Shown: positions 40,445 to 49,687 of the stretch, one piece after another | Position numbering within the stretch: position 1 is the first letter of the stretch | How the letters are laid out: each line of letters starts with the position of its first letter | NCBI GenBank assembly: GCA_000004695.1 | Contig: CM000154.2 | Location: forward strand, 480,001-544,000 | DNA length: 64,000 nt | From: Dictyostelium discoideum | Taxonomy: Eukaryota | Direction of reading: 5' to 3' | Translations under genes and position numbers: made by a program | Notes under the pieces: model-generated | Seen by the model: only the letters and a program-made list of their open reading frames with translations | Told to the model about the DNA's origin: nothing | Database searches by the model: none

Positions 40445-43064
40445 TTATTTTATTTTATTGTTACTATAATCAGTTTGAGATTTAATTAATTTATTAAATT
40501 TGGAATTTGGAATATTCATTAAGTTTGAAGGAGTATCGAATTCTATTAATTGACCACTATCTATTACTGCTATTTTATTACAATCAATAATTGTTTCAAG
40601 TCTATGAGCAATTGTTAAGGTTGTACAATCTTTAAAGTTTTCTTGAATTGTTTGTTTGATTAATTGAGCTGTATGGTAATCAATTGAACTTGTGGCTTCG
40701 TCCATTAAAATGATTTTAAAATTTTTTAAAATCGTTCTACAAAGACATAATAATTGTTTTTGACCATATGAGAAACCATTATCACCATTCTCTTGTAGTG
40801 CTGTCTCTAATTTTAATGGCATTGAATTGATTGCATCCTTTAATTTAACTTTTTCAATTGATTCCCAAATTTCAAAATCAGTGAATTCATTGAATGGGTC
40901 AATGTTTGAACGAATTGTACCTGTGAAAATGAATGGATCTTGAGGTACAATACCTATTGATGATCTTAGTTTTTGTAATTGAACCTTTGATATATCAATA
41001 CCATCAATTAATATTAAACCTTTTGAACATTCTACCATTCTAAATAATGATGAAGCGATAGTTGTTTTACCGGCGCCAGTTCTACCAACTATTCCAATCT
41101 TTTCGCTGGATTGAACTTTAAATGATAAATCTTTTAAATTTGGTTCTGAATTTGGTCGATATTTAATTTCCACATTTTTAAACTCTATAATACCTTTATT
41201 TGGCCAATTAACTAAATCACCATTTGAAATAGTTTTAAGACCATCACTATCAACTTGATTAGTACCAGTGGATATGAGTTTATTTCCTTCTTTTGGAATT
41301 TCAATATAACTTTGAATTCTTTGGAATGAGTTCATTTTAACTTCTAATTCAACGATTCTACGAACTCCCCAACTTAGATAACCATTTAAACTCAAAGCAG
41401 TTGTGACTGATAACGCAGCGAGTCCATTGTTTGATGTGAATAATGCAGCAGCTAATGAAGTAAAGAATACCATTATACAACCCATAACTTCTAATCTCAT
41501 AGATATCCATCTATGAACTGCGAAACTATAAAAGATACAACCTAAATTAATATTGATATTATCAAACATTTCTTTAATAAATCTAGATTCTTGTTTATAA
41601 GTTCTAATTGTAAGTAAACCATTATAGCACTCTTGAAGTAATGAAAATACTGGCGATAATGTAATAGATTCCCATCTATTTAATTCTCTTGCTGATGGTC
41701 TATATAATCTTTGATAAATATAATAAATTATAAATAACAAAGTTAAAGGTATAATAATAATTGGAATAATGAAAACTATTGAAATTAAACCAATTGTTAA
41801 TTCAGAGAAACATATTGAAACCTCTGATAATAGATCCAACATATGAATATCAATATCACTAGTATCTTTACTGAATCTATTTAAAATTCTACCTGATGGA
41901 TTTGTATCAAAGAATCTACATGATGCATATGTTACTGATTTTAATAGTGCTGAATGTAAATTTTTACCAATTCCAAATGTTATACGACTTAATGAATATG
42001 TACGTATCATTAATAACGAAACAAAAATACCAATAATTAATAAATAGTAACCAATGTAAAATGAATCACTTTTGCCTTCAATTGATCTTTCTGTCCAAAT
42101 TGCTAACCAAAAATCTGAAACTTTATAAACGGCTTGACCAATGAAAAATAATGAAATAGTGATGAAAAGTGTTACACCTGATGTTCCATAACTAAAGTAT
42201 TTTTTATAAACATTAAATTCTACCTCTCCCTCATTTTTATCTTCTTTAACTAATAATTTTGCTTTCTCGATTAAATTTGGATCATTCTTATCACTAATAA
42301 CATTATTAACATCAATAATTTCATTTTCGATTTCAATTTCATTTTTTATTAACTCTTCACTATCAGTTTCATTTTCAACATTTTTTTTAATTTCTTTTGT
42401 TTTTAAAATTGATTTAAAATCAATACCTTGAATACAATGATCGAATAAATGTGATGCGACTTCAGGATCTACAGCTGATAAAGGTTCATCAAAAATAAAA
42501 CAATCTGAATTTGCATAAAGTGCACGTGCTAATGATATACGCTGTTTTTGACCTCCTGAAAGGTTAATACCACGTTCTCCAATCTCTGTTAAATCTAATC
42601 CTGCTAAATTTACTATATCTTTTGTTAATGCTGTTGATTCAATAACTTTTTTATATCTTTCTATATCAAATTCATTTCCAAATAGAATATTCTCTCTTAA
42701 TGATGCACTTAATAAAAATGGTTGTTGACTTGTAAATGAAATATTATTTGGTACACCACTAACACTACCATTTAATTTATAAATTTCACCAATTAAACCA
42801 CAAACTAAACTTGTTTTACCGCTACCAACAACACCACAAATCATAGTTAATTTACCTTTTGGTACTATTAAATTAATATCATTTAATTTATAATCAAAAT
42901 TTTCATTTATTTTAATATTTTCTTCATTTTCCTCTTCCTCTTCTTCTTCATTTTCTTCCTCATCTTCGCTTTGATTAAATTCAAATAAATTATTATTTTC
43001 AGGTTCATTCCATTGAAATGTACAATTTTCAATTATAATATCATTATCATCATTATTGTTATTA

Positions 43065-43099
<35 letters not shown>

Positions 43100-44477
43100 G
43101 AAGTTAATATTTTGATTATTTTCTTTTGATTTTAAAGATTCAGAAGATTTTAAAAAATTTTGAATTCTTTTGACTGATGGCATTAAACCAATAGCTTTAT
43201 AAATATCTTCAGGTAAATAAATTAAGGGTAATTTTAAATTTGCAAAAATGGTCATTGCTGTGAAAGTTACATCTAAACTCATTGTATTACCGGTTAATGA
43301 ATAAGTTGCAAATGTTGATACTAATACTAAGGTTGCATTGGTTTCAATCATCATATGATCGAAAATCCAAAATAAAACTCTAAGAAATAAAAATTTTAAT
43401 TCTTGTTTTCTTTGTTCTTCAATTTTATTTATAAATAAATTCTCCCATGCATACATTTTAAATGGTCTAATATTGGTTATTAATTCACTGGTTAAATTAG
43501 TTCTTGAATCTGAATATTCCAATGATTTCTCTAAATAATTACTAGATTTTGTACACAACATGGTGTTGATTGGTAATGCAATTACCATTACACCAAATCC
43601 AACTAAACCACTTGGACCAACTACATAACATAATAATCCCAATAATATAAGAATTTGAAGTGTATGTGATACAATATCTAAATAATAAGTCCAAAAGAAT
43701 TCTGATATATTTTCAACATCAATTGACATAATATTCATAATTTTTCCAGATCTATATTTCTTTTTTGATACATTTGATAGTTTTAATGTTTTTTCAAATA
43801 TCTTTGCTGTTAATGCGCCTCTAACATCAAAACTATTTTTCATACCAAACCAATAAAATAATTCTTGTGAAATTGATTGTCCTAATATACTGATACATAA
43901 TAAACAACATAATAAAATTCCTTTTAAAATGGATTTTTCATTATCATTATCTGTTGATATATAATTTATTAAACTTTTATAAAAAAAAAAAAAAAAGTTA
44001 GTTCTTTTTTAATTTAAAAATAAATAAATATTAGATTAAATTAAATACATACAATTTTAAACAAATTGGTGATAAAAATATAAAAATTGTAATAAATATA
44101 TTTGAAATTAATGCATATTTATTTTTTGGTAAAAAATTTTTATAAATATGTTTTATTAATGCATATTTTGAACCATTTGAAAAATTGATATCATCCAATA
44201 GTTTTGATGTGGTTTGGACTTTATTTAACTCTGGTAAATCATAAATATCGTTCATTTCTAATGATTCTTTGAAATAACCTTTCATTATTAATTTCGTTAC
44301 CCAATTAAAACTAATTTTTGACCATTTTGATGAATTATCTTCTGGACATGCTTTATAAAAATTATTTGTTGAATTTGATGGTGAAGATGATGGTTCATTT
44401 TCATCTTCATCATCAAGCTTTTCATACAATAATGAAAATTTTTTTTTTATTTTTGTTTCGAAACTATTTATAAACAT
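40445..44477 (-). CDS. abcC: ABC transporter, ABCC/MRP subfamily (TMD-NBD-TMD-NBD), tandem copy 1; 2 exons at 44477..44053 and 43973..40445, about 1317 aa. It carries a 45-codon in-frame deletion in NBD1
   Basis: Exon 1 (MFINSFETKIKKKFSLLYEKLDDEDENEPSS...FLSPICLK, phase 2) has donor TT|GTATGT. The acceptor ATAAAAG|T at 43974/75 restores ..LINYISTDNDNEKSILKGILLCCLLC...GMKNSFDVRGALTAKIFEKTL.... Walker A (GVVGSGKTS), signature (LSGGQKQRISLARALY) and Walker B (CFIFDEP) are present, and NBD2 has GRTGAGKTT, FSYGQKQLLCLCRTILK and ILMDEATSSID. Relative to copy 2, 135 bp are missing at 42427|42428 (protein ...DHCIQG^IDFKSI...). Confidence 0.85.
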
Positions 44478-48200: not shown

Positions 48201-49373
48201 GTTTAATGAATAAGTTGCAAATGTTGATACTAATACTAAGGTTGCATTGGTTTCAATCATCATATGATCAAGTATTGAGTAAAAAATACGTAGGAATATA
48301 TTCTTTAATTCTTGTTTTCTTTGTCCATCAATTTTATTTATAAAGAAATTCTCCCATGCATACATTTTAAATGGTCTAATATTGGTTATTAATTCACTGG
48401 TTAAATTAGTTCTTGAATCTGAATATTCCAATGATTTCTCTAAATAATTACTAGATTTTGCGCATAACATTGCATTGATTGGTAATGCAATTACCATTAC
48501 ACCAAATCCAACTAAACCACTTGGACCAACTACATAACATAATAATCCCACTAAACTTAATATTTGGATGAAATGGGACACTATATTAATATGATGTGTC
48601 CAAAAGTATTCAGATATGTTTGCAACATCAATTGACATAATATTCATAATTTTTCCAGACTTGTATTCCTTTCTTGATGCATTTGATAATTTTAATGTTT
48701 TTTCAAATATCTTTGCTGCTAATGCACCTCTAACATCAAATCCATTTTTAATACCAAACCAATAAAATAATTCTTGTGAAATTGATTGTCCTAAAACACA
48801 TAAACATAATAAACAACATAATAAAATTCCTTTTAAAATGGATTTTTCATTTTCATCTTGTATTGAAATATAATTTATTAAACTTTATTTTTTTTTTTTG
48901 AAATAAAATAAAATCAATTAATAAAATTGGAAATAATTGGAAAATAAATAAACTATATAATATACTTACAATTTTAAACAAATTGGTGATAAAAATGTAA
49001 AAATTATTATAAATAAATTTGAAACTAAAGCATATTTATTTTTTGGTAAAAATTTTTTATAAATATGTTTTATTAATGTATAATTAGAATTATTTGATAA
49101 ATCTATATCTTCCAATAGTTTTGATGTGGTTTGGACTTTATTTAACTCTGGTAAATCATAAATATCGTTCATTTCTAATGACTCTTTTAAATAACCTTTC
49201 ATTATTAATTTCGTTACCCAATTAAAACTAATTTTTGACCATTTTGATGAATTATCTTCTGGACATGTTTTATAAAAATTATTTGTTGAATTTGATGATG
49301 GTTCATTTTCATCTTCATTATCTTTTAGTTTTTCATAGGACGAAAAAAACTTTTTTAAAATTTTAGTGAACAT
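45231..49373 (-). CDS. abcC: ABC transporter, ABCC/MRP subfamily, tandem copy 2 (intact NBD1); 2 exons at 49373..48970 and 48882..45231, about 1351 aa
   Basis: The true ATG is MFTKILKKFFSSYEKL at 49373, and the track start at 49421 is translated poly-A leader. The donor TT|GTAAGT at 48969 and acceptor (A)12TAAAG|T at 48883/84 restore ..LINYISIQDENEKSILKGILLCC.... NBD1 contains ...[77 protein letters not shown], including the H-loop His. The 3' 1.3 kb is nearly identical to copy 1. Confidence 0.85.
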
Positions 49374-49687
49374 TTTTTTTTGTTTTTTTTTTTTTTTTTT
49401 TTGTTTTGTTTTGTTTCTCACACAAACATGATCTAATTAAATAACTCGGCAACTCCAATATTTTGTTTAAAAGCAACTCCATTATTTAGTGATTTGTTCT
49501 TTATTTCTTAAAAAATTCTCTACTTTCATTTTTGAGAAAATATATTTAAAAGGTTCACCCTTATAGTATGTTCTTTTTTTTTAAAGTGGAGAAAAGAGAA
49601 TGAAAGCTGTGTTTTTTTTTAGATTTTTTGGATTTTTCGTTTTAATTTTTTTTTTTTTAGTTCGTTTTTTTAGGGTTATCTTGATTT

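What the first reader, a model, noticed from the sequence alone, without database searches (positions are those of the whole stretch)
40445..49421. Tandemly duplicated ABCC transporters: one copy carries a precise 135-bp in-frame deletion removing the NBD1 H-loop, with a mosaic identity pattern
Two head-to-tail ABCC/MRP genes on the minus strand (40445-44477 and 45231-49373) are nearly identical at the nucleotide level over the 3' 1.3 kb (NBD2), including third codon positions. They diverge in patches, for example the linker at 41220-41290 versus 46010-46075 and the N/E-rich linkers. Copy 1 lacks exactly 45 codons present in copy 2 (plus-strand 47217-47351; junction in copy 1 at 42427|42428). 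The missing segment encodes [45 protein letters not shown], which is the beta-strand and H-loop His of NBD1. The ORF is otherwise intact, and the segment has no GT/AG ends, so it is not an intron. Copy 1 is therefore either a recently inactivated paralogue kept homogeneous by gene conversion, or a transporter with a deliberately crippled NBD1.
Basis: partly seen in the sequence, partly recalled or inferred. Interest (0 to 1): 0.6.

Follow-up and report, generated by a model that had tools for sequence, protein, structure and literature searches.

The report
Lab-strain deletion allele of abcC14
Two neighbouring Dictyostelium drug-pump genes (abcC6 and abcC14) keep their ATP-binding parts identical by copying sequence from each other, and in the standard laboratory strains abcC14 has recently lost 45 amino acids from the core of its first ATP-binding domain, most likely a tolerated defective allele and not a designed feature.

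Summary
The window is D. discoideum AX4 chromosome 5. Copy 1 is abcC14 (Q54K24, 1317 aa) and copy 2 is abcC6 (Q8T6H3, 1351 aa).

- **Deletion:** abcC14 lacks exactly 135 bp (45 codons), flanked by a 4-bp AAGG microhomology. The lost piece holds the NBD1 H-loop strand, two more core beta-strands and a helix.
- **Not an artefact or intron:** an independent de novo long-read assembly of a near-identical strain (by elimination AX2-214) has the same junction. The segment is coding-like, with no GT/AG ends.
- **Distribution:** the segment is present in the other 13 of 15 gene copies across eight genomes. These include the abcC14 orthologues of two wild D. discoideum isolates, two cryptic sister species, D. 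citrinum, D. dimigraforme and D. firmibasis. The deletion is therefore a young allele of the laboratory (NC4) lineage.
- **Mosaic identity:** this is domain-restricted gene conversion. In the NBD1+linker and NBD2 tracts, paralogues within each genome are closer (dS 0.008-0.07) than alleles between strains (0.05-0.09) or species (0.28-0.56). The transmembrane regions stay diverged.

The deletion lies inside the NBD1 tract. Loss of function is inferred from structure, not shown. This is an ordinary kind of event, mainly useful to Dictyostelium researchers and annotators.

The parts
40445..44477 (-). abcC14 (copy 1). Exons are 44477-44053 and 43973-40445, with a 79-nt intron at 43974-44052. The product is 1317 aa, identical to Q54K24 / EAL63603.1.
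45231..49373 (-). abcC6 (copy 2). Exons are 49373-48970 and 48882-45231, with an 87-nt intron at 48883-48969. The product is 1351 aa, identical to Q8T6H3 / EAL63605.1.
42426..42429 (-). Deletion junction in abcC14: the single retained copy of the AAGG microhomology (reads ...TGTATTCAAGG|TATTGATTT... on the minus strand).
47215..47353 (-). The 135-bp segment of abcC6 that abcC14 lacks. The range shown includes the 4-bp ambiguity; the MAFFT placement is 47219-47353. It encodes [45 protein letters not shown]. The H-loop His codon is at about 47310-47312.
42185..42800 (-). Gene-conversion tract 1 in abcC14 (NBD1 core plus linker up to TM7). It has 2 differences from abcC6 and contains the deletion junction.
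46974..47724 (-). Gene-conversion tract 1 in abcC6 (751 bp, which is 616 bp plus the 135-bp segment).
40465..41219 (-). Gene-conversion tract 2 in abcC14 (NBD2 to near the stop codon), with 4 differences from abcC6.
45263..46017 (-). Gene-conversion tract 2 in abcC6 (NBD2).
42467..42502 (-). abcC14 NBD1 Walker B plus D-loop ([12 protein letters not shown], aa 633-644), retained just upstream of the deletion. Walker A (GVVGSGKT) is at 42812-42835.
   Evidence: coordinates worked out by hand from the exon model

Best explanation
abcC6 and abcC14 are tandem 'short MRP'-type ABCC exporter genes. The duplication is at least as old as the common ancestor of D. discoideum and D. firmibasis.

**Gene conversion.** In every genome examined, recurrent conversion between the two genes homogenises the two stretches that encode the nucleotide-binding domains (NBD1 plus linker, and NBD2). 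The stretches encoding the transmembrane, substrate-facing domains stay diverged.

**The deletion.** In the lineage that gave the laboratory strains AX4 and AX2 (NC4-derived), abcC14 then suffered a single 135-bp in-frame deletion between two AAGG microhomologies. This is the signature of replication slippage or microhomology-mediated repair, possibly during a conversion or repair event. It happened after the last conversion that spanned the site.

**What was lost.** The deletion removes the beta-strand carrying the H-loop (switch) histidine, the following helix, two further core beta-strands and the start of the C-terminal helix of NBD1. Walker A, the Q-loop, the signature, Walker B and the D-loop are left intact.

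**Inferred consequence.** NBD1 can no longer form its RecA-like core properly. ATP site 1 is lost and the protein is probably unstable or poorly coupled. The AX4/AX2 allele would then be a null or strong hypomorph, tolerated because abcC6 (and other abcC paralogues) overlap in function.

Shown: the anatomy, the distribution among strains, the conversion pattern and the young age. Inferred: the mutational mechanism and the functional consequence.
For: **Identity of the genes**
- Exact matches to the AX4 abcC14 and abcC6 proteins.
- ABCC family: two ABC_membrane plus two ABC_tran Pfam domains. The best NCBIfam hit is MRP (TIGR00957, 711 and 758 bits). The best solved relative is MRP4/ABCC4, 8sx7, E=5e-73.

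**The deletion is real**
- BLASTN and MAFFT place it consistently.
- The same junction is in locus L002. L002 comes from a separate GenBank assembly that differs from the window by 2 mismatches and 10 gap openings (55 gap positions) over 17.5 kb.
- PMC12745789 describes its assemblies as de novo Nanopore plus Illumina. AX2-214 is its only laboratory strain.

**It is lineage-specific**
- The 45-aa segment is present in 13 of 15 gene copies across 8 genomes.
- These include abcC14 of the wild D. discoideum assemblies ACTFIR and ACTFIW, two cf. discoideum assemblies, D. citrinum, D. dimigraforme and D. firmibasis.

**Gene conversion**
- Within-genome paralogue dS in tracts 1 and 2: AX4 0.008 and 0.02; ACTFIR 0.02 and 0.068; ACTFIY 0.02 and 0.02; D. 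firmibasis 0.063 and 0.033.
- Orthologue dS in the same tracts is 0.08-0.09 (AX4 vs ACTFIR) and 0.28-0.5 (AX4 vs D. firmibasis). Paralogue dS is 0.19-0.29 in the TMD regions.
- Between AX4 and ACTFIR, 22 of the 27 'concerted-pattern' sites fall in the 300-column bins that hold the tracts. 260 'orthologous-pattern' sites lie almost entirely outside them.
- The 45-aa segment is identical between paralogues within each genome but differs between genomes.

**Young age**
- Derived AX4-lineage substitutions shared by both paralogues lie on both sides of the deletion (columns 2033-2621).
- There are 300 bp of perfect identity abutting the junction.

**Mechanism.** A 4-bp junction microhomology occurs in only 1.0-1.6% of simulated deletions in this gene.

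**Structural consequence**
- In the AlphaFold2 model of intact abcC6 NBD1 (pLDDT 83.1, pTM 0.79), the segment is E213-217, H221-226, E229-233, E239-242 and part of H244-249.
- The abcC14 model drops to pLDDT 68.8 and pTM 0.61. It loses the strand before Walker A, and the N-terminal sheet falls to pLDDT 64-75. The helical subdomain stays at about 90.
- All 18 aligned ABCC homologues, from amoebae to animals and fungi, keep the segment with at most 2 gap positions. Some replace the His itself with Asn or Ser.

**Redundancy.** D. citrinum has only the abcC14-like copy and no abcC6 at this locus, so either paralogue can be dispensed with.
Against: - Loss of function is not demonstrated.
- The ORF is otherwise intact. 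AX4-lineage substitutions in abcC14 show no relaxed constraint: 9 non-synonymous and 21 synonymous, against 11 and 23 on the ACTFIR lineage. This is expected if the deletion is very recent, but it also fits retained function.
- PMC3743828 reports that abcC14 transcript peaks in growing cells. It also reports that an abcC14 disruptant made in AX4 (which carries this allele) has small, asynchronous fruiting bodies and 38-50% sporulation. Taken at face value, the allele does something.
- Caveats to that report: most of the paper's 35 mutants had reduced sporulation, and both primers used to build the abcC14 vector match abcC6 exactly.
- AlphaFold confidence is not a measure of stability.
- Identity of the flanks does not strictly date the deletion, because conversion tracts can end at a large heterology.
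- Assigning L002 to AX2-214, and the deletion to NC4, is by elimination and from strain history, not from a record I could read.
Confidence: 0.75

Rival explanations
1. Functional, adaptive variant. The shortened AbcC14 would be a working transporter or regulator that needs only ATP site 2. NBD1 would serve merely as a docking partner, an extreme form of the degenerate NBD1 seen in CFTR, SUR and MRP1.
For: - The deletion is in frame and the rest of the ORF is intact, with no excess of non-synonymous change.
- The NBD1 signature LSGGQ, which completes ATP site 2, is retained.
- The NBD2 signature is already non-canonical (FSYGQ), hinting that site 1 may be the weaker site.
- Some ABCC homologues replace the H-loop His with Asn or Ser.
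- The gene is transcribed and a disruptant was reported to have a mild phenotype (PMC3743828).
Against: - The deletion is found only in the AX4/AX2 lineage. Thirteen of 15 copies in 8 genomes keep the segment, and the abcC14 orthologue is full-length in every other genome examined.
- It removes three core beta-strands, not just the His. No aligned ABCC homologue lacks them.
- NBD1 has the canonical Walker B Asp-Glu, so it is not a pre-degenerated site.
- The model of the shortened domain loses confidence in the RecA-like core.
- The reported knockout is not clearly gene-specific.
Confidence: 0.1
2. The deletion arose during laboratory propagation of NC4 or its early derivatives, so it is not a natural polymorphism of wild D. 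discoideum.
For: - It is seen only in the two laboratory-lineage assemblies.
- It is extremely young: there is perfect identity around it.
- Growth on rich or axenic media could relax selection on a xenobiotic exporter (inference).
Against: - AX2 and AX3/AX4 were derived separately from NC4 (my own knowledge of strain history). A shared deletion therefore most simply predates axenic selection.
- Only four other discoideum-clade genomes were available, all geographically distant (Costa Rica and Mexico). Absence there says little about North Carolina populations.
Confidence: 0.25
3. Assembly or annotation artefact: a collapse between near-identical paralogues in the AX4 reference, or an unrecognised intron retained in abcC6.
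For: - The flanks are 100% identical between the two genes for hundreds of bases, the setting in which mis-assembly can occur.
- I could obtain no transcript reads.
Against: - A separate assembly has the identical junction, with abcC6 intact next to it. The authors describe their assemblies as de novo long-read plus short-read.
- The GenBank entry AAL89812.1 (ABCC.14) is also 1317 aa.
- The segment has no GT...AG in any of the 5 placements. It is 25% G+C, against 9-11% in the real introns.
- It encodes universally conserved NBD strands.
Confidence: 0.02

Closest known systems
Human/bovine MRP4 (ABCC4), a 'short' MRP without TMD0 (PDB 8sx7, 8bjf)
   Same: Best solved relative of the NBD1 region (E=5e-73). 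The TMD-NBD-TMD-NBD layout and length (about 1325 aa) are the same. The H-loop block is almost the same: [13 protein letters not shown] in MRP4 against [13 protein letters not shown] here.
   Different: MRP4 NBD1 has Walker B Asp-Asp (a degenerate catalytic residue). AbcC6 and AbcC14 have Asp-Glu. The AX4 AbcC14 lacks the 45 residues that align with roughly MRP4 578-623. Substrates of the Dictyostelium proteins are unknown.
Asymmetric ABCC proteins with a degenerate ATP site 1 (CFTR, SUR1/2, MRP1)
   Same: In these proteins NBD1 is catalytically weak, and the H-loop His can be replaced; the CFTR-like homologue in the alignment has Ser there. A non-canonical NBD1 is therefore compatible with function in this family.
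   Different: Their changes are point substitutions on an intact fold and are conserved across orthologues. Here three beta-strands and a helix are removed, only in one strain lineage, from an NBD1 that otherwise looks catalytically competent.
CFTR deltaF508 and other in-frame NBD1 deletions that cause misfolding (my own knowledge)
   Same: An in-frame deletion in NBD1 of an ABCC protein that leaves the ORF intact but compromises domain folding or assembly. This is the mechanism I infer here.
   Different: One residue against 45. The CFTR case is shown experimentally, whereas here the inference rests on the fold and on AlphaFold confidence.
Concerted evolution of tandem duplicates by interlocus gene conversion, with specificity regions escaping (for example human ABCC6 and its pseudogenes ABCC6P1/P2, or globin and opsin pairs). 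These are cited from my own knowledge; the ABCC6 pseudogene paper PMC3434077 was seen only in a search listing.
   Same: Mosaic of near-identical and diverged blocks. Paralogues within a genome are closer than orthologues between genomes in the converted blocks. Synonymous sites are homogenised too.
   Different: Both partners here are full-length genes. The converted blocks coincide with the two NBDs in at least five independent lineages spanning an estimated 50-100 My (time estimate from PMC12745789).

Membership tests
ABCC (MRP/CFTR) full-length ABC exporters | TMD-NBD-TMD-NBD architecture with two ABC_membrane and two ABC_tran domains | tested here: met
   Pfam gives PF00664 twice and PF00005 twice in both proteins.
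ABCC (MRP/CFTR) full-length ABC exporters | Closest similarity to MRP-type proteins over other ABC subfamilies | tested here: met
   The top NCBIfam hit is TIGR00957 MRP (711 and 758 bits). This is below the 1470-bit equivalog cut-off, as expected for short MRPs without TMD0. The top PDB hits are ABCC4, ABCC2, ABCC5 and ABCC1.
ABCC (MRP/CFTR) full-length ABC exporters | Complete motif set (Walker A, signature, Walker B/D-loop, H-loop) in both NBDs | tested here: not met
   AbcC6 has all motifs in both NBDs. AX4 AbcC14 has them in NBD2, but NBD1 lacks the H-loop and the strands after it. AbcC14 is a member by descent with an incomplete NBD1.
ABCC proteins with a conserved degenerate NBD1 (CFTR/SUR/MRP1 type) | Catalytic Glu after Walker B replaced in NBD1 | tested here: not met
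   NBD1 reads [12 protein letters not shown], so the Asp-Glu is retained.
ABCC proteins with a conserved degenerate NBD1 (CFTR/SUR/MRP1 type) | The degeneracy is conserved among orthologues | tested here: not met
   abcC14 orthologues in 6 other genomes, and all abcC6 copies, have the full segment.
Interlocus gene conversion / concerted evolution | Within-genome paralogues more similar than between-genome orthologues in the tract, including synonymous sites | tested here: met
   dS is 0.008-0.07 for paralogues, against 0.08-0.09 (strains) and 0.28-0.5 (species) for orthologues. The segment is identical within genomes and different between them.
Interlocus gene conversion / concerted evolution | Mosaic with discrete tracts; strain-specific variants shared by both paralogues | tested here: met
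   22 of 27 concerted-pattern sites fall in the 300-column bins that hold the two tracts. 260 orthologous-pattern sites lie almost entirely outside. Shared derived AX4 substitutions are listed.
Pseudogene (decaying, non-functional copy) | Frameshifts or stop codons, or relaxed constraint (raised dN/dS) | tested here: not met
   The ORF is intact. The AX4-lineage N/S is 9/21, against 11/23 in the sister lineage.
Pseudogene (decaying, non-functional copy) | Loss of transcription | not testable with these tools
   No read data were available. PMC3743828 reports abcC14 transcript peaking at 0 h, and its qPCR primers are abcC14-specific and span the intron.
Spliceosomal intron (the 135 bp as an intron retained in abcC6) | GT...AG ends and very A+T-rich, non-coding composition | tested here: not met
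   No placement starts with GT. The segment is 25% G+C, against 9-11% in the two real introns. It encodes conserved NBD strands in all homologues.

The most novel reading that the evidence does not exclude
The AX4/AX2 AbcC14 protein folds, reaches a membrane and still transports or signals, despite lacking the H-loop strand and two further core strands of NBD1. That would make it a natural demonstration that an ABCC exporter can work with only ATP site 2 and a truncated NBD1 scaffold. The mild phenotype reported for the AX4 abcC14 disruptant would be the first hint.
Probability: 0.08. Interest if true: 0.6.

Novelty: new member of a known kind. Interest (0 to 1): 0.25.

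Why it matters
- **For Dictyostelium work.** The reference strains AX4 and AX2 appear to carry a structurally compromised abcC14 allele, while wild isolates and sister species carry the full-length gene. 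This affects how the published abcC14 and abcC6 knockouts are read. The abcC14 vector primers match both genes, and abcC6-specific primers work only because they lie in the 135 bp. It also bears on redundancy among abcC genes and on database entries that list Q54K24 as an ordinary ABCC transporter.
- **More generally.** The pair is a clean example of gene conversion confined to the ATPase-coding blocks of two transporters while the substrate-facing domains diverge. The pattern repeats independently in at least five lineages, so it could be used to measure conversion tract lengths in this very A+T-rich genome.
- **Limits.** Neither point changes what is known about how ABC transporters or gene conversion work.

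Tried and rejected
1. **Transcript or re-sequencing contigs.** I looked these up by exact protein, using the 1132-aa exon-2 ORF and the full 1317-aa protein. Nothing is on record, so the junction could not be checked in RNA.
2. **Anjard & Loomis 2002.** This is the original ABCC.14 description. It is not held by DOI or by my guess at the PMC id, so I cannot say whether the missing segment was noted there. Only one Dictyostelium paper in the library mentions abcC14.
3. **Intron hypothesis.** Rejected on end sequences, composition and coding conservation.
4. **Assembly collapse.** Rejected because a second assembly has the same junction.
5. **Conserved 'designed' degeneracy.** D. firmibasis has a 1315-aa neighbour that looked like a second short copy. 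Its shortness is an N-terminal annotation gap, and it has the full NBD1 segment.
6. **Relaxed constraint on the AX4 abcC14 lineage.** No signal.
7. **tRNA and Rfam scans of the window.** Nothing found.
8. **Not run.** I did not run structure-library searches on the two models, because the fold is not in question.

Full report
**What is there**

The window is very A+T-rich. Its two large minus-strand ORFs, joined to short 5' exons across 79- and 87-nt GT...AG introns, give proteins of 1317 and 1351 aa. An exact-sequence look-up identifies them as D. discoideum AX4 AbcC14 (Q54K24, EAL63603.1) and AbcC6 (Q8T6H3, EAL63605.1). They lie on a 5,125,352-bp contig, which is chromosome 5.

Both proteins have two ABC_membrane and two ABC_tran domains. 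Their best NCBIfam model is MRP, and their closest solved relative is the short MRP ABCC4.

**The observation**

- BLASTN of one gene region against the other breaks into two collinear blocks. They overlap by 4 bp in abcC14 (42426-42429) and skip 135 bp of abcC6, at 47219-47353 in the MAFFT placement.
- At protein level abcC14 goes straight from ...FDHCIQG to IDFKSIL.... It lacks [45 protein letters not shown].
- A motif scan finds Walker A, the signature and Walker B/D-loop in both NBDs of both proteins. The H-loop motif is found only in NBD2 of AbcC14.
- The segment is bounded by AAGG on both sides. None of the five equivalent placements begins with GT. It is 25% G+C, against 9-11% for the real introns.

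Two corrections are needed:

1. The near-identical 3' block is about 755 bp, not 1.3 kb.
2. The deletion lies inside it.

**Is it an artefact?**

Locus L002 comes from a different GenBank assembly (GCA_054883475.1). It matches 17.5 kb of the window with 2 mismatches and 10 gap openings (55 gap positions). It carries the identical junction in abcC14, next to an intact abcC6.

The paper that produced this set of assemblies describes them as de novo Nanopore plus Illumina. Its only laboratory strain is AX2-214, and the others are diverged wild isolates (PMC12745789). By elimination, L002 is AX2-214. The older GenBank entry for ABCC.14 (AAL89812.1) is also 1317 aa. Assembly collapse is therefore very unlikely.

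**How widely is the deletion found?**

I fetched the syntenic locus from seven other genomes. The 45-residue segment is present in 13 of 15 gene copies. It is missing only from abcC14 of AX4 and of L002.

- Full-length abcC14 orthologues occur in two wild D. discoideum assemblies (locus tags ACTFIR and ACTFIW), two 'cf. discoideum' assemblies, D. dimigraforme and D. firmibasis.
- D. citrinum has a single gene, which is abcC14-like in both transmembrane halves.

The deletion is thus derived and confined to the laboratory lineage. AX2 and AX3/AX4 were derived separately from NC4 (my own knowledge), so it most simply dates to NC4 or earlier. It is absent from the other discoideum-clade genomes available.

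**The mosaic**

Sliding-window and Nei-Gojobori analyses show the same pattern in every genome that has both genes.

| Comparison | Region | dS |
|---|---|---|
| Paralogues within one genome | NBD1+linker and NBD2 tracts | 0.008-0.07 |
| Orthologues, AX4 vs ACTFIR | same tracts | 0.08-0.09 |
| Orthologues, AX4 vs D. firmibasis | same tracts | 0.28-0.5 |
| Paralogues within one genome | TMD1 and TMD2 | 0.19-0.29 |
| Orthologues within D. discoideum | TMD1 and TMD2 | 0.05-0.07 |

Sites were then classified between AX4 and ACTFIR.

- 27 sites have the concerted pattern: both paralogues agree within a strain and differ between strains. Of these, 22 fall in the 300-column bins that hold the tracts.
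- 260 sites have the orthologous pattern, almost all outside the tracts.
- The 45-aa segment itself is identical between paralogues in each genome but carries genome-specific substitutions.

This is recurrent interlocus gene conversion, restricted to the ATPase-coding blocks and operating independently in each lineage.

Tract limits differ somewhat between lineages. D. firmibasis has an extra 5' tract, and its NBD1 tract ends before the linker. Even the TMD regions are closer between paralogues (dS 0.2-0.29) than between AX4 and D. firmibasis orthologues (0.42-0.56). Older, rarer exchanges probably reached them too. Orthology is still visible in dN and in diagnostic residues.

**Age and mechanism of the deletion**

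- Derived AX4-lineage substitutions shared by abcC6 and abcC14 lie on both sides of the deletion. The 300 bp abutting the junction are identical.
- A conversion spanning the site after the deletion would have repaired it or copied it into abcC6. The deletion is therefore younger than the last such event. Flank identity alone is not a strict clock, because tracts can stop at a large heterology.
- A junction microhomology of 4 bp or more is expected in only 1.0-1.6% of random deletions in this gene. This points to replication slippage or microhomology-mediated repair.

**Consequence (inferred)**

- In the AlphaFold2 model of intact AbcC6 NBD1 (pLDDT 83.1, pTM 0.79), the lost residues form the H-loop strand (213-217), a helix (221-226), two more strands (229-233 and 239-242) and the start of the C-terminal helix.
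- The AbcC14 domain, modelled with the same alignment, drops to pLDDT 68.8 and pTM 0.61, and the five models scatter from 54 to 69. The strand before Walker A is not formed. The N-terminal sheet falls to pLDDT 64-75, while the helical subdomain stays near 90.
- All 18 aligned ABCC homologues keep the segment with at most two gap positions, although several replace the histidine itself.
- NBD1 has a canonical Walker B Asp-Glu, so this is not a long-degenerate site.

I conclude that the allele most likely encodes an unstable or uncoupled transporter. It would be a null or strong hypomorph, tolerated through overlap with abcC6. The single-copy state in D. citrinum shows that one member of the pair suffices.

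**Evidence pointing the other way**

- The ORF is otherwise intact and shows no relaxed constraint.
- Miranda et al. report abcC14 mRNA peaking in growing cells. Their AX4 abcC14 disruptant has small, asynchronous fruiting bodies and 38-50% sporulation (PMC3743828).
- That phenotype is weak evidence. Most of their mutants sporulated poorly, and both primers used to build the abcC14 vector match abcC6 perfectly (window 42210 and 46999; 40898 and 45696). Their abcC6-specific primers lie inside the 135-bp segment.

**Verdict**

It is a young allele of the laboratory lineage sitting in a gene-conversion tract, not a conserved design. The kind of event is well known. The value is practical, for strain background, knockout specificity and annotation. 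The pair is also a tidy example of domain-restricted concerted evolution. Interest is 0.25.

Noticed in passing
window 42915 and 42932 (abcC14 acidic linker): These are the only two base mismatches between the window (AX4) and L002 (AX2-like) over 17.5 kb. Both fall in the GAA-rich linker of abcC14. One changes Asn to Ile in AX4, where all other strains have Asn. They could be reference sequencing errors or real laboratory-lineage mutations.
   Followed up: partly
L005 10001-14295 (D. citrinum): D. citrinum has a single gene at this locus. It is abcC14-like in both transmembrane halves, and there is no abcC6 remnant within 10 kb either side. Together with the crippled abcC14 in AX4/AX2, this suggests either paralogue is dispensable.
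   Followed up: partly
L007 14820-19010 (D. dimigraforme); L004 15210-19345 (D. firmibasis): The D. dimigraforme abcC14 orthologue is intact but annotated as two gene models (139 aa and 1182 aa). The D. firmibasis orthologue (1315 aa) is short because part of the N-terminus is missing from the annotation, not because of the NBD1 deletion.
   Followed up: partly
window 42210/46999, 40898/45696, 47303, 47231: Published knockout and qPCR primers (PMC3743828, supplementary tables): both abcC14 vector primers match abcC6 exactly. The abcC6 forward primers are unique only because they lie inside the 135-bp segment that abcC14 lacks.
   Followed up: yes
window 37253-39814 (-): This is an 853-aa Asn-rich ORF with many repeats of an FN.P/FG..FNQ type (FNIP-repeat-like, recognised from memory). 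It sits downstream of abcC14 in the discoideum and citrinum clades, but no such gene lies between the ABC pair and the Sos7-domain gene in D. firmibasis.
   Followed up: no
window 49745-49825 and 50063-50143: An 81-nt direct repeat (93% identical), 318 bp apart, lies in the intergenic region upstream of abcC6.
   Followed up: no
L004 (D. firmibasis) alignment columns 150-750 of the gene alignment: In D. firmibasis the two paralogues are also almost identical (0-1.4% different) over most of the first exon and the start of exon 2. This extra conversion tract is not seen in the discoideum clade, and the D. firmibasis NBD1 tract stops before the linker.
   Followed up: partly
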